This document shows, one piece after another, positions 6,902 to 12,698 of a stretch of 28,461 nt of DNA; within the stretch, counting starts at the first letter, position 1, and the number at the start of each line of letters is the position of its first letter. The notes beneath the pieces were generated by a model. The model was not told where the DNA came from, did not search any database, and worked only from the letters and a program-made list of their open reading frames with translations. Source of the stretch: Promethearchaeota archaeon (GTDB lineage Archaea; Asgardarchaeota; Lokiarchaeia; Sigyniarchaeales; SOKP01); contig JAHLWP010000044.1 in assembly GCA_019057865.1 (NCBI GenBank), positions 1-28,461 on the forward strand. Reading direction: 5' to 3'. Position numbers and translations under genes: made by a program.

Positions 6902-7417
6902 ATGAGAAAAACGGTTAAGATTGTCGTTTCGGGAGATGGAGGAGTAGGAAAGACTTGCTTTTTAAATCGATTAGTTCATGATAAGTTTAACATTAACAGT
7001 GATTTAACTAAAGGGGTGGATTTTTTTTCTAAAAGTGTCTCAGTTAATGATACTGAATACAATTTTATAATGTGGGATTTTGCTGGTCAAAACCATTTTA
7101 GAAGTTTATTAAACAGTTTTGTAGATGGATCAATAGCTGCTTTTATTTTATTTGACTTAACACGATTAAATACACTTGAAACTGTATATGAATGGATTAC
7201 AAAACTTTCTAATTATGGAAATATACCCACTTTAATTTTAGGCACAAAAAACGATATAACAAATCTCAATGATTATTCATTTCTCAATGAATATATTTCA
7301 GAAATAAGGAAATACTACAAAAATATTATTGGTTATTTTGATGTATCATCAAAAACTGGTTATAATATTAAAAGAGCTTTTGATTTTTTGATAGAATATA
7401 TTTCAGATTGTAGCTAA
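6902..7417 (+). CDS. small GTPase, Ras superfamily (Rab-like)
   Basis: G1 GDGGVGKT, G2 TKGVDF, G3 WDFAGQ, G4 TKND, G5 SSK. Confidence 0.92.
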   Translation: MRKTVKIVVSGDGGVGKTCFLNRLVHDKFNINSDLTKGVDFFSKSVSVNDTEYNFIMWDFAGQNHFRSLLNSFVDGSIAAFILFDLTRLNTLETVYEWITKLSNYGNIPTLILGTKNDITNLNDYSFLNEYISEIRKYYKNIIGYFDVSSKTGYNIKRAFDFLIEYISDCS

Positions 7418-9684: not shown

Positions 9685-9760
9685 GCCAGAGTCGCCTAGA
9701 CTGGCAGGGCGACAGCCTGCAGAGTTGTTTACGGGAGTTCAAATCTCCCCTCTGGCTCCA
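9685..9760 (+). tRNA. tRNA-Cys (GCA), intronless, CCA encoded
   Basis: Acceptor GCCAGAG/CTCTGGC, D stem GCCT/GGGC, anticodon stem ACAGC/GTTGT with loop CTGCAGA, T stem GGGAG/CTCCC with TTCAAAT, discriminator U, then CCA. Confidence 0.96.
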
Positions 9761-9906
9761 GCTTTTTAAGAGAAAAATTTTTACCAATCGAAATCCAAAT
9801 AATATATACTTTGAAATGTTTATTAGCGCTTTTTCTTAAAAAAAAAATATTAATATTTAATTTGGTTTTCATAAGATTTTTCAAAATTATTAAGTTAGTT
9901 GAATAT

Positions 9907-10791
9907 ATGGCTTTACAAAAAGTAACTATTAAAGATATTATAGAGAAGAAAAAGAAAGGTGAAAAGATAGTTACAATAACATCATATGACTATTCATTTA
10001 CTAAAATTGTCGATGCGAGTAATTTTGATTTAATTCTTGTCGGGGATTCACTTTCGATGGTTATGCTTGGATATAGAAATACGTTATCTGTCACCATGGA
10101 CGAGATGATTCATCATACTAAGGCTGTAAGTCGAGCAGTCTCAAATGCATTGATAGTTGGTGATATGCCTTTTCTTTCTTATAAAATTGATATAAAAGAA
10201 GCTTTAAAAAATGCAGGAAGATTTATTCAGGAAGGTGGTGCTGAAGCTGTTAAAGTTGAGGGCGGGACTGAAATTTGTCCAACGATAAAAGCAATGATTA
10301 ATGCAGATATTCAAGTTATGGGTCATATTGGTCTCACACCCCAAGCAATTTATAAATTTGGTGGTTTTTTAGTTCAAGGAAAGACTTTAGAAGCTGCGAA
10401 AAAGCTCATTTTAGATGCTAAAAATTTGGAAGAAATGGGTGTTTTTTCGATTGTTTTGGAGAGTATTCCTTGGCAAATTGCGAAGTTAATTACAAGTACT
10501 GTAGAGGTTCCAACTATTGGTATCGGTGCTGGACCACATTGTGACGGTCAGATATTAGTTATTCATGATATGTTAGGAATTTTTACTGAATTTAAACCTA
10601 AATTTCTTAAATATTTTGGCAAAATTGGAGAATCAATACATCAAGCATTAGATATTTATAGGAATGAAGTAATAAGTGGCACATATCCTGATCATGAGCA
10701 TTCATATGAATTTCCTGAAGAAGATTTAGATAAAATTAATGAATGGTTCGAAAGCGTTGATATTAATGAAGAAGCTCACAAATTGATTTAG
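9907..10791 (+). CDS. panB: 3-methyl-2-oxobutanoate hydroxymethyltransferase
   Basis: TSYDY, ILVGDSL, GDMPF, AVKVEGG, GHIGLTPQ, TIGIGAG..CDGQILV. True start ATG 9907 (MALQKVT). Confidence 0.95.
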   Translation: MALQKVTIKDIIEKKKKGEKIVTITSYDYSFTKIVDASNFDLILVGDSLSMVMLGYRNTLSVTMDEMIHHTKAVSRAVSNALIVGDMPFLSYKIDIKEALKNAGRFIQEGGAEAVKVEGGTEICPTIKAMINADIQVMGHIGLTPQAIYKFGGFLVQGKTLEAAKKLILDAKNLEEMGVFSIVLESIPWQIAKLITSTVEVPTIGIGAGPHCDGQILVIHDMLGIFTEFKPKFLKYFGKIGESIHQALDIYRNEVISGTYPDHEHSYEFPEEDLDKINEWFESVDINEEAHKLI

Positions 10792-10969: not shown

Positions 10970-12698
10970 ATGGCTGAAGAATACGACTTTCTATTTAAAT
11001 CCATTGTTGTGGGAGACGGTGGAGTTGGTAAAACTGCATTAACGCTTCGTTTTAGTAAAGGGTTCTTCACAGAAGATTACAAAATGACAATTGGCGTAGT
11101 AACTAAGAGGAATTCCCTCTAGGGGCGCAAACTTTCATGTGAAGACCATTACTATTGATACTAATGAAGGACCAATTCGATCGAAGCTACAAATCTGGGA
11201 TACAGGTGGACAAGAAAGATTTAGTTCTATAAGACCAATGTATTATCGAGGATCTTTAGGAGCTTTAATGATCTTTGATCTTACAAATTCTGCTAGCTTC
11301 GAACATTTACCTCAATGGATCGAAGAAGTCAGAGCAAATGTAAAAAGTGAGATCCCACTATTATTAGTCGGAAATAAGAGTGATTTAACTGATGAAAGAG
11401 TAATCTCAATAGAAGAGATTAACAATTTCACAAGAGATTTTAATTTGTATTATATGGAAACTTCAGCAAAGACAGGTGAGGGTGTTGGCGATTGTTTCTA
11501 TATTCTAGCTTGTCTAATGATAGGATCAGGAGTACCAGATCAATTAATATCCAAAAACATTATTTATAGTCCTGGTCAAATTCTTGGTGTACCTAAAGCT
11601 ATAACTTCACCCGCTACTCTATCAGAACCAGAATATAATTTCTCTGCACCCCCAGTCCCTGAACCAACTCCTACATTCGAACCAGAACCAGAATTTGAAT
11701 TTGAAGCTCCTCCAGTCCCTGAACCAAGCCCAATGGAAAAATCCGAACCTATTCATATATTTGAACCAGAATTAGAACCAGATATTCTTATTCCAGAACC
11801 AAAAATAGAAGAAAAAGGCGAAAAACAAGTTGAATTCGAATTTAAAACCCCTGATGAAATATTATCTGAAGGAGCAGAACAAAAGCCCGTTATTACTACT
11901 TCTTCAGATATTTCCACATCTACTGATAGAGGGAGTTATAAACCTAAAGCAGTGCCTTTTACTTCAAGCATTCCTATTCCAGCGCCACCACCAGAAGGAT
12001 TTCAAGCCCCTAAAGAAATACAACATGTAGAAACAACTAAAGCTCCTGCTCCTTTTCTAATTACAAAGAAAGAAGAACCGCCTAAACCAACATCTATGGC
12101 ATTAGACATACCTGTCGAAACTATATCCGAATCATCATCAGAATCATTAATAGATTATATGCCTGAGACTATTATATCTAAGAAAGATAAGAAAAAATTA
12201 GCCAAACAGAAAAAGAAAGAAGAAAAAGAAAAAGCTAAATTAGAGAAGGAGAAAAAGATCCAAGAAGCAAGAGAAAAGCAAGAAAGACTTATAAAAGATA
12301 TGAAAACAGCTAAGAAGGAAAAGAAAGAAAAGAAAGAAAAGGTTGAAGTAAAAATACCTATACCAATACAACCTACACCATCAACTTCTACAGCATCAGA
12401 AACACCTTCACTTTTTCAAGCTTTAACCCAAAAAGCTGAAGAATCAGATCAAGCGAAAACCTCTACATTTATCCCTTTTGCTGCTACTAAAAAGTCTGAA
12501 ATACAAGAAAGTAGTAAATTAAGAATAATCCCTAATGTAGCTGATATTGAAAGTACAACTCCAACAACCCCTGTTGTACCAATTAACCAAAAGATAGACC
12601 AACAACGTGCAAGTAAGGAAATAATAATTTGTAAACAATGCGGTGCAATATTATCTTCAGATTATGCTTTTTGTAATAAGTGCGGAACTAAACTATGA
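10970..12698 (+). CDS. Rab-like small GTPase with long Pro/Glu-rich and Lys/Glu-rich linker and C-terminal zinc ribbon; join(10970..11099,11131..12698), 565 aa if spliced
   Basis: Exon 1, missed by the track, is MAEEYDFLFKSIVVGDGGVGKTALTLRFSKGFFTEDYKMTIGV. After a 31-nt insert the other frame continues DFHVKT...WDTGGQERF..YYRG..GNKSDL..ETSAKTG. Ends CKQC..CNKC. Confidence 0.9.
11100..11130 (+). other. candidate 31-nt bulge-helix-bulge (tRNA-endonuclease type) mRNA intron
   Basis: Central helix GCGU(11094-97)/GCGC(11125-28), 3-nt bulges AG^U(11098-100) and AA^A(11129-31), internal hairpin. Removal gives GTA GAC TTT (V-D-F). Confidence 0.78.
11640..11790 (+). repeat. intragenic Pro/Glu repeats (APPVPEP x2, FEPE repeats)
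   Basis: CCAGTCCCTGAACCAA occurs twice; several GAACCAGAA units. Confidence 0.6.

What the first reader, a model, noticed from the sequence alone, without database searches (positions are those of the whole stretch)
11081..11141. Candidate bulge-helix-bulge mRNA intron splitting switch I of an Asgard Rab-like GTPase
Seen: an ORF from ATG 10970 encodes a clean Rab-type N-terminus ending ...YKMTIGV. It then runs into 31 extra nt (TAACTAAGAGGAATTCCCTCTAGGGGCGCAA, 11100-11130; 15/31 G+C in an AT-rich context) containing an in-frame TAG (11120-22). The rest of the GTPase resumes in another frame. Deleting exactly these 31 nt gives GTA G|AC TTT and restores TIGVDFHVK; the paralog at 6902 has uninterrupted TKGVDF. 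The junctions fold as a 4-bp central helix GCGU(11094-97):GCGC(11125-28), a 3-nt bulge AG^U on the 5' strand and a 3-nt bulge AA^A on the 3' strand. The exon side is closed by G11093-C11132 plus AUGA/UCAU. The intron side has tandem A.G pairs, then the hairpin CUA(A)GAGG/CCUCUAG. Established: archaeal splicing endonuclease EndA cuts BHB/BHL motifs after the second nucleotide of each bulge, which is exactly where the frame-restoring cuts fall. mRNA introns of this type are best known from crenarchaeal cbf5. Inference: an intron-containing, possibly splicing-regulated, eukaryotic-signature gene in an Asgard archaeon. Unspliced RNA would give only a 50-aa peptide, and gene callers would annotate a P-loop-less GTPase. 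Both exons look intact, which argues against a dead gene. I am not aware of this being described, but cannot check.
Basis: partly seen in the sequence, partly recalled or inferred. Interest (0 to 1): 0.93.

Follow-up and report, generated by a model that had tools for sequence, protein, structure and literature searches.

The report
tRNA-type mini-intron in Asgard Rab-like GTPase
A 31-base insert that breaks a Rab-like GTPase gene of an Asgard (Promethearchaeota) archaeon has the shape, cut sites and compensatory base changes of a tRNA-type (bulge-helix-bulge) intron, so the mRNA is very probably cut and rejoined by the tRNA-splicing enzymes, which published work confirms for only one archaeal protein gene (cbf5).

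Summary
The ORF from ATG 10970 ends at TAG 11120-22. Removing exactly 11100-11130 joins it to the 11131-12698 frame and restores an unbroken Ras/Rab domain.

The insert is very probably a real bulge-helix-bulge (BHB) pre-mRNA intron.
- An insert of 31 nt (30 nt in one lineage) sits at the same phase-1 site in 5 of 119 family orthologs and in several metagenome contigs. All other orthologs are uninterrupted.
- Both exons are under strong purifying selection in holders.
- Across 8 diverged copies the central 4-bp helix always pairs. The Gly wobble base covaries with its intron partner (C-G, U-A, A-U), and 9 of 17 pairs show compensatory change.
- The genome encodes a two-subunit EndA with the broad-specificity loop, plus RtcB.
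- Its only rps12 gene carries a 30-nt BHB insert with an in-frame stop, so mRNA splicing must work in this organism.

Weak points:
- I could obtain no RNA reads.
- The outer exon-exon helix is weak (one invariant G-C).
- Regulated splicing is untested.

Gene trees and a mosaic 5' tract indicate intron turnover by recombination. This scan had already noted similar mRNA mini-introns elsewhere in this genome and in other Asgard genomes. I found no paper describing them.

The parts
10970..11099 (+). Exon 1: start codon, P-loop (GDGGVGKT), switch I Thr, ending with the first base (G) of the Asp codon (phase 1)
   Evidence: ORF list and sequence. Pfam Ras profile positions 1-34. The 43 codons are nearly invariant across holders despite about 24 nt differences per pair.
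11100..11130 (+). 31-nt BHB intron with an in-frame TAG at 11120-22
   Evidence: It is exactly absent from 46 same-genus orthologs and present at the same site in G012, G014, G016, G145 and in metagenome contigs. It is single-copy in the genome and in the genus.
11131..12698 (+). Exon 2: rest of the GTPase domain (DTGGQE, NKSD, SAK), a long low-complexity linker, a C-terminal zinc ribbon and the TGA stop
   Evidence: Pfam Ras profile 38-157 and Zn_Ribbon_1. The spliced product is 565 aa, colinear with intronless orthologs.
11094..11097 (+). Central helix H, 5' strand (GCGU, exonic; includes the Gly wobble base 11095)
   Evidence: Paired in 8 of 8 holders. Position 11095 covaries with 11127 as C-G, U-A and A-U.
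11125..11128 (+). Central helix H, 3' strand (GCGC, intronic)
   Evidence: helix 2 is 100% paired.
11098..11100 (+). 5' bulge A-G-U; predicted cut after G11099
   Evidence: Geometry. The same AG^U bulge and cut rule apply in this genome's tRNA-Ser(UGA) and rps12 introns.
11129..11131 (+). 3' bulge A-A-A; predicted cut after A11130
   Evidence: A cut here restores the frame.
11101..11124 (+). Inner helix h' and loop (two A.G pairs, then CUA(A)GAGG / CCUCUAG, loop AAUUC)
   Evidence: Minimum-free-energy fold. 8 of 9 pairs show changes on both sides across holders.
11084..11093 (+). Outer (exon-exon) helix h, 5' side: G11093 plus the weak AUGA stretch
   Evidence: G11093-C11132 is invariant in 8 of 8. 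The other outer pairs are 25-75% paired.
11132..11138 (+). Outer helix h, 3' side: C11132 (third base of the GAC Asp codon) plus UCAU
   Evidence: All holders use GAC, whereas most intronless orthologs use GAT.

Best explanation
The gene is transcribed as one pre-mRNA. In it, bases 11093-11132 fold into a bulge-helix-bulge motif.

Structure:
- A 4-bp central helix forms between the end of exon 1 (GCGU) and the 3' part of the insert (GCGC).
- Two 3-nt bulges lie on opposite strands (AGU and AAA).
- An inner intron hairpin closes one side. A minimal outer closure (G11093-C11132) closes the other.

Processing:
- The host's heterotetrameric (alpha-beta)2 splicing endonuclease EndA cuts after the second base of each bulge, that is after 11099 and after 11130.
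- RtcB ligates the exons and probably circularises the 31-nt intron.
- The spliced mRNA encodes a 565-aa Rab-like GTPase with an intact IGVDF motif.
- Unspliced RNA yields only a 50-aa peptide.

Shown here: the insert, its exact site, the frame restoration, selection on both exons, conservation of the structure by compensatory changes, and the presence of the enzymes. Inferred: the cleavage and ligation themselves.

The intron is old and patchy. It occurs in at least two genera of the family, and its presence or absence appears to be exchanged by short recombination tracts.
For: 1. Exactness. Removing 11100-11130 makes the Pfam Ras match colinear: profile 1-34, then the junction Asp, then 38-157. 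The product matches intronless orthologs residue for residue around TIGVDFHVK.

2. Same site in relatives.
- 4 of 50 same-genus orthologs hold the insert, and 5 of 119 orthologs in the family's 135 species genomes.
- Metagenome and NCBI contigs L069, L070, L071-74, L075, L076-78 and L080 also hold it.
- The length is 31 nt in all but one lineage, where it is 30 nt. All copies contain an in-frame stop.

3. Selection. Exon 1 differs by a mean of 24 of 129 nt between holders but by only about 2 of 43 residues. Exon 2 is likewise conserved.

4. Covariation on the 8-sequence alignment A3.
- The central helix is 100% paired.
- Pair 15-47 is C-G in 3, U-A in 3 and A-U in 2 sequences.
- 9 of 17 pairs change on both sides. 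No shuffle of 500 reached this, and the slid controls give 1-3.
- In the inner helix, 8 of 9 pairs are compensatory.

5. Enzymes.
- Two EndA paralogs are present.
- The 200-aa one keeps the catalytic His and the K-P-R of the Crenarchaea-specific loop, aligned to A. pernix K44/R46 (PMC3241643).
- The 207-aa one has lost the His.
- RtcB is present.

6. Splicing of such inserts must operate in this cell.
- The only rps12 gene has a 30-nt in-frame insert with TAA and a canonical BHB.
- tRNA-Ser(UGA) shows the same AG^U cut rule.

7. No conserved start codon follows the insert. Codon 47 is GTG in 3 of 8 holders and otherwise GTC, GTA or GTT.
Against: - No RNA evidence. A metagenome search for the spliced junction found only unrelated paralogs.
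- The outer exon-exon helix is weak. Only one pair is invariant, so the motif is a relaxed BHB on the exon side.
- In this genome the first two inner pairs are A.G.
- The single-sequence fold is only modestly better than shuffles (z -1.67).
- The 30-nt lineage (G145, L076-78) has an A.A mismatch at the covarying position of the central helix.
- The 8 copies represent about 6 lineages, so the counts of covarying cells overstate the number of independent events.
Confidence: 0.88

Rival explanations
1. Translational recoding. The ribosome hops over the insert or shifts frame within it (as in T4 gene 60 bypassing or programmed frameshifting), and the hairpin serves as the recoding signal.
For: In this genome the exon-1 frame closes at 11120-22 and the exon-2 frame is open from 11103, so a shift window exists. 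A stable hairpin sits in the gap. cbf5 introns were once confused with frameshifting (PMC2738675).
Against: - There are no matching take-off and landing codons (GTA against GCA or other codons).
- In L075 the window between the stops of the two frames is about one codon. In the 30-nt lineage the insert is in frame and would need stop read-through instead, so no single recoding mechanism fits all holders.
- A shift would put about 10 variable residues into the invariant IGVDF motif and replace the Asp.
- The covariation links an exon wobble base to an intron base in BHB geometry, which recoding does not require.
Confidence: 0.04
2. A decaying gene. The insert is a recent indel or mobile-element footprint, and the GTPase is a pseudogene in the genomes that hold it.
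For: GGCGTA and GGCGCA form a near-direct repeat at the ends. The genome has about 50 Ras-family paralogs that might compensate. Only a small minority of orthologs hold the insert.
Against: - Holders from at least two genera keep both exons intact, with about 19% nucleotide but about 5% residue divergence in exon 1.
- Insert length is fixed at 31 or 30 nt while its sequence diverges with compensatory changes.
- There are no other copies in the genome or the genus.
- The near-repeat is simply the two strands of the central helix.
Confidence: 0.03
3. A split gene. The 50-aa P-loop peptide and the exon-2 protein are made separately and reassemble into a GTPase.
For: In this genome a GTG lies 8 nt after the insert, and gene callers use it.
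Against: That codon is GTG in only 3 of 8 holders. In others the first usable start is Met in MYYRG, about 35 residues further on. The extra C-terminal residues of the peptide vary freely (VTKRNSL, VSLRVSR, GL, E). A split protein does not explain the BHB covariation.
Confidence: 0.03

Closest known systems
cbf5 (pseudouridine synthase) pre-mRNA intron of Crenarchaeota/Thaumarchaeota (Watanabe 2002; Yoshinari 2006; Yokobori 2009, PMC2738675)
   Same: [quoted passage not shown] It interrupts a functionally critical motif. It is presumed to be cut by the tRNA-splicing endonuclease, and it is linked to a hetero-oligomeric EndA. Its distribution is patchy, with lineage-specific loss.
   Different: - The gene differs: a Rab-like small GTPase, a eukaryotic-signature family.
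- The phylum differs: Asgard (Promethearchaeota).
- It is far rarer among orthologs (5 of 119).
- Splicing is not shown experimentally here, whereas cbf5 splicing was.
- It is one of several mRNA mini-introns in the same genome (rps12 checked here).
BHB introns of Asgard tRNA genes (PMC11291895; bioRxiv 10.64898/2026.10.13.758758; EndA survey PMC5829648)
   Same: The same motif, a similar size range and the same predicted enzymes. This genome's tRNA-Ser(UGA) intron has the same AG^U 5' bulge and cut rule. Asgard EndA is (alpha-beta)2 with the broad-specificity loop.
   Different: The substrate is an mRNA. The exon halves of the motif are coding sequence, so the structure is maintained through synonymous codon choice (GGN wobble, GAC). 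Those papers do not report mRNA introns.
HAC1/XBP1 unconventional mRNA splicing in eukaryotes (own knowledge; RtcB and HAC1 are linked by reference 5 of PMC5829648)
   Same: Non-spliceosomal removal of a short intron from an mRNA by an endonuclease plus a tRNA-type ligase, which changes the reading frame of the product.
   Different: The nuclease there is Ire1, which recognises twin stem-loops, and splicing is stress-regulated. Here the motif is an EndA-type BHB, and regulation is unknown.

Membership tests
Archaeal bulge-helix-bulge (BHB) intron | 4-bp central helix flanked by two 3-nt bulges on opposite strands, each 3' of its helix strand | tested here: met
   GCGU 11094-97 pairs with GCGC 11125-28, and the bulges are 11098-100 and 11129-31. 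The helix is paired in 8 of 8 homologous copies.
Archaeal bulge-helix-bulge (BHB) intron | Cuts after the second base of each bulge give the functional mature RNA | tested here: met
   These cuts remove exactly 31 nt and restore colinearity with Pfam Ras and with intronless orthologs. The rule was calibrated on this genome's tRNA-Ser(UGA), where it gives the anticodon that fits the long variable arm.
Archaeal bulge-helix-bulge (BHB) intron | Flanking helices h (exon-exon) and h' (intron) of the canonical hBHBh' form | tested here: inconclusive
   h' is present and covaries at 8 of 9 pairs. For h, only G11093-C11132 is invariant and the remaining pairs are 25-75% paired. The motif is therefore relaxed on the exon side.
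Archaeal bulge-helix-bulge (BHB) intron | Structure kept by compensatory substitutions among homologous copies | tested here: met
   9 of 17 pairs change on both sides, reached by 0 of 500 shuffles, against 1-3 in the slid controls. Pair 15-47 is C-G, U-A or A-U.
Archaeal bulge-helix-bulge (BHB) intron | Host encodes a splicing endonuclease able to cut relaxed motifs, and an RtcB ligase | tested here: met
   The alpha subunit has the catalytic His and the K-P-R loop, and the beta subunit lacks the His. RtcB matches at E 1.7e-168.
Archaeal bulge-helix-bulge (BHB) intron | Excision and exon ligation observed in RNA (spliced junction, circular intron) | not testable with these tools
The junction pattern search in metagenome contigs found only unrelated paralogs.
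Ras/Rab small GTPase (PF00071) | G1 P-loop, switch I Thr, DxxGQ, NKxD and SAK motifs in order in one polypeptide | tested here: met
   This holds only after removal of the insert: exon 1 matches at E 1.2e-9 and exon 2 at E 5.9e-36. The motifs are visible in the joined translation. Sources name relatives GTP-binding protein or Rab-11A.
Self-splicing group I / group II intron | Ribozyme core of hundreds of nucleotides | tested here: not met
   The insert is 31 nt, and Rfam finds only a tRNA in the window.
Translational bypass element (T4 gene 60 type) | Matching take-off and landing codons around a coding gap | tested here: not met
   The flanking codons do not match and differ between holders. 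One lineage has an in-frame 30-nt insert.

The most novel reading that the evidence does not exclude
This Asgard lineage runs a genome-wide system of roughly 30-nt mRNA introns removed by the tRNA-splicing machinery. The system reaches eukaryotic-signature genes such as Rab-like GTPases. Intron-plus and intron-minus alleles are exchanged between species by short homologous-recombination tracts, so intron gain and loss can be watched in a close relative of eukaryotes. Splicing efficiency might additionally gate how much GTPase is made.
Probability: 0.45. Interest if true: 0.88.

Novelty: new member of a known kind. Interest (0 to 1): 0.75.

Why it matters
- Published work confirms endonuclease-type splicing of an archaeal protein-coding message only for cbf5. 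A second, well-supported case lies in the archaeal group closest to eukaryotes, in a gene family tied to the origin of membrane trafficking. It shows that interrupted protein genes and post-transcriptional repair of reading frames are part of Asgard biology.
- There is a practical consequence. Gene callers split these genes into a 44-50-aa fragment and a P-loop-less GTPase. That distorts counts and domain inventories of Asgard small GTPases.
- Closely related species differ only in presence or absence of the intron. The mosaic tract around the site offers a natural experiment on how such introns are gained and lost.

Tried and rejected
- Spliced junction in metagenome contigs: the degenerate 27-nt junction pattern hit two contigs. 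Both are unrelated paralogous GTPases.
- Possible cDNA: P0001, a 565-aa protein 94% identical to the spliced product, turned out to be an ordinary intronless genomic allele with panB upstream.
- Genome-wide scan for frame-restoring BHB inserts: I combined structure and ORF-joining filters and compared them with decoy cut geometries (one search timed out). Counts for the true geometry were no higher than for decoys, because adjacent gene pairs swamp the signal. The scan is uninformative, not negative.
- Other copies of this intron: blastn in the genome and a covariance model across 54 genus genomes found only the four known copies.
- Other Ras paralogs split at this site: tblastn found none. 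Two partial hits (C6, C63) are a truncated gene and a multidomain protein.
- Tree of about 80 full-length rows: MAFFT timed out, so I used the first 560 nt instead.
- Rejected readings: transposon footprint, pseudogene, frameshift or bypass, and split protein (see the rival explanations).
Full report
WHAT IS THERE

The window is AT-rich (27.3% G+C). An ORF starts at ATG 10970 and encodes a textbook small-GTPase N-terminus, with the P-loop GDGGVGKT and then ...YKMTIGV. It then reads seven unrelated residues and stops at TAG 11120-22. A second frame, open from 11103, carries the rest of the GTPase domain, a long low-complexity linker and a C-terminal zinc ribbon, ending at TGA 12696-98.

Pfam Ras matches exon 1 at profile positions 1-34. 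It matches the downstream frame, read from Phe 11133, at positions 38-157. Removing exactly 11100-11130 (31 nt, 48% G+C) creates the codon G|AC. The result is TIGVDFHVK, colinear with the profile and with every intronless ortholog.

THE FOLD

- Central helix: GCGU 11094-97 pairs with GCGC 11125-28.
- Bulges: AGU 11098-100 and AAA 11129-31. Each lies 3' of its helix strand, which is the canonical BHB topology.
- Inner side: an intron hairpin.
- Outer side: G11093-C11132 plus AUGA/UCAU.

The single-sequence energy is only modestly better than shuffles (z -1.67). The case therefore rests on comparison with relatives.

RELATIVES

Among genome representatives:
- The gene has a clear ortholog in 50 of the 54 species genomes of the genus and in 119 of the 135 genomes of the family.
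- I read the junction in all 50 genus orthologs. 46 are uninterrupted (GTN GAY TTY). Four (G000, G012, G014, G016) hold a 31-nt insert at exactly the same phase-1 position.
- A pattern search over the family adds one more holder, G145 of another genus, with a 30-nt insert.

Among metagenome and NCBI contigs:
- Protein searches with the exon-2 ORF and with the 50-aa exon-1 ORF gave further holders: L069, L070, L071-74, L075, L076-78 and L080.
- Every copy carries a stop in the exon-1 frame.

SELECTION ON THE EXONS

Between holders, exon 1 differs at a mean of 24 of 129 nt but at only about 2 of 43 residues. From residue 12 onward it is identical in all holders. G000 and G014 differ at 76 of 393 nt and 15 of 131 residues in the exon-2 G domain. 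These are working genes, so the insert must be neutralised at the RNA or translation level.

COVARIATION

Eight distinct copies align without gaps over 61 columns.
- The central helix is paired in all eight.
- The wobble base of the Gly codon (11095) and intron base 11127 form C-G in three copies, U-A in three and A-U in two.
- In the inner helix, 8 of 9 pairs change on both sides.
- Overall, 9 of 17 pairs are compensatory. No shuffle of 500 reached this, and partners slid by one to three columns give 1-3.
- The two A.G pairs at the base of the inner helix in G000, G012 and L071 are ordinary pairs (G-C, U-A, C-G or G-U) in the other lineages.
- G11093-C11132 is invariant. C11132 is the third base of the Asp codon, which is GAC in all holders but mostly GAT in intronless genes.

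The rest of the outer helix is poorly conserved, so the motif is relaxed on the exon side. The 30-nt lineage has an A.A mismatch at the covarying pair. The eight copies represent about six lineages, so cell counts overstate the number of independent events. Three pair types at one position, and eight covarying inner pairs, are nonetheless hard to explain otherwise.

THE MACHINERY

The genome encodes two EndA paralogs, each with both EndA domains.
- The 200-aa protein aligns best with the catalytic subunit of the Aeropyrum pernix heterotetramer (3p1z_B). It keeps the catalytic His and the K-P-R of the Crenarchaea-specific loop, aligned to K44/R46. That loop confers the ability to cut relaxed motifs (PMC3241643).
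- The 207-aa protein has Ser where M. jannaschii EndA has its catalytic His, as expected of a structural beta subunit.
- This agrees with the published survey, which found that Asgard archaea have (alpha-beta)2 EndA with that loop (PMC5829648).
- RtcB is present.

ARAGORN finds only 18 tRNA genes in a genome that is 99.7% complete, and 12 of them have introns. That fits the heavy interruption of Asgard tRNA genes described in PMC11291895 and in bioRxiv 10.64898/2026.10.13.758758.

TWO INTERNAL CONTROLS

- tRNA control. A tRNA on contig C75 was called Thr(UGU) by ARAGORN, yet it has a long variable arm. Its BHB has central helix CUUG/CAAG and bulges AG^U and UA^A. Cutting after the second bulge base gives anticodon UGA, which makes it a proper tRNA-Ser. 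The cut rule therefore holds in this genome.
- rps12 control. Following a note of this scan, I checked rps12. The only match in the genome has an in-frame TAA. It lies in a 30-nt insert at C27:25030-25059 (minus strand). The insert has central helix CUGG/CUAG, an AG^U bulge and a 9-bp hairpin, and its removal gives ...FLPG|DGALNF.... An essential single-copy gene cannot be a pseudogene, so this cell must splice such inserts out of mRNA.

RIVAL EXPLANATIONS

- Frameshift or bypass. The overlap between the two open frames shrinks to about one codon in L075. The 30-nt lineage would need stop read-through instead. There are no matching take-off and landing codons. Ten variable residues would also land inside the invariant IGVDF motif.
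- Split protein. The GTG after the insert is present in only 3 of 8 holders.
- Pseudogene or transposon footprint. Selection, covariation and the fixed length argue against it. The near-direct repeat at the ends is just the two strands of the central helix.
- Mobile repeat. The insert is single-copy in the genome and in the genus.
- Known RNA family. Rfam finds no family here.

EVOLUTIONARY HISTORY

Holders do not form one clade.
- With full-length genes, G000+G012 and G014+G016 are far apart. Holding them together is rejected (p-AU 0.015; tree of 56 rows).
- G000+G012 are sister to the intronless G055/G056.
- With more holders, at least four changes of state are forced.
- For nt 200-560, monophyly of holders is strongly rejected (p-AU 2e-7). 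For the 159 nt around the site, with the BHB bases left out, it is not rejected (p 0.09). In that tract L070 moves next to the G000 clade.

The sequence around the site is a mosaic.
- Between G000 and its intronless near-twins, identity is 84-88% in the first 200 nt of the gene, against 95-100% further downstream.
- In nt 61-150, five sites group the two holder clades against the sisters of G000, and two sites favour vertical descent. In nt 151-520 the counts are 0 and 46 (Fisher p 7e-6).
- Three of those five sites may be constrained by the BHB itself. The comparison was also made after seeing the data.
- The Ser codon switch (AGT against TCT), 45 nt upstream of the site, is not explained by the BHB.

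My reading is that short recombination tracts carry the intron-plus or intron-minus state between lineages. The direction of transfer is unresolved. The more distant holder L071 lies outside the G000 clade, which favours loss in G055/G056. The 5' tract of L070 resembles that of other holders, which favours lateral gain.

COMPARISON WITH WHAT IS KNOWN

- The mechanism is that of the cbf5 pre-mRNA intron of Crenarchaeota. According to Yokobori et al. 2009, cbf5 was the only archaeal protein gene with confirmed splicing (PMC2738675).
- Four full-text searches found no report of mRNA BHB introns in Asgard archaea. The recent Asgard tRNA-intron papers do not mention them.
- Notes of this scan list similar mini-introns elsewhere in this genome (thiolase, rps12, uS3, aIF2-gamma, Fe-S proteins, 5S rRNA) and in other Asgard genomes. 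Two of those notes claim RNA support. I verified only rps12.
- This is therefore a new member of a known kind: a new gene and a new phylum, with unusually good comparative support.

LIMITS

- I could obtain no RNA data.
- My genome-wide structural scan could not separate true introns from adjacent gene pairs.
- Regulated splicing remains pure conjecture.

Noticed in passing
G000 contig C27:25030-25059 (minus strand); locus L060: The only rps12 gene of the genome carries a 30-nt in-frame insert with a TAA. The insert folds as a canonical BHB (central helix CUGG/CUAG, AG^U bulge, 9-bp hairpin). Removing it restores ...FLPG|DGALNF...
   Followed up: yes
G000 contig C75:64734-64836: ARAGORN calls this tRNA Thr(UGU), but it has a long variable arm. 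Placing the intron by the BHB rule gives anticodon UGA (Ser). ARAGORN finds only 18 tRNA genes in a 99.7%-complete genome, 12 of them with introns, so many tRNA genes are probably missed or mis-spliced by the caller.
   Followed up: partly
L085 (G145), L076-L078: A second genus holds a 30-nt, in-frame version of the intron at the same site. It has an A.A mismatch at the otherwise covarying pair of the central helix, and exon 2 offers a possible alternative pairing (GGAGU with ACUUC).
   Followed up: partly
window 10970-11170 compared with L034, L035, L106: The first 200 nt of the gene or so are 84-88% identical between intron holders and their otherwise 95-100% identical intronless sister alleles. 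This is a short mosaic tract centred on the intron site, which suggests gene conversion.
   Followed up: partly
window 11560-12698: The GTPase has a linker of about 380 residues rich in Pro, Glu and Lys, and a C-terminal CxxC...CxxC zinc ribbon in place of a prenylation signal. This architecture is conserved across the family. A DZR (double zinc ribbon) gene is a conserved neighbour on the opposite strand downstream.
   Followed up: no
window 9685-9757: An intron-less tRNA (Rfam 55.8 bits; ARAGORN calls it Cys GCA) lies just upstream of the panB-like ORF 9811-10791. The long TTG-started ORF call probably overextends the gene at its 5' end.
   Followed up: no
G000 contig C6:4534-4737 (minus strand): A Ras-family gene breaks off after WDFAGEE and runs into stops, with no continuation in another frame. 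It may be a truncated pseudogene.
   Followed up: partly
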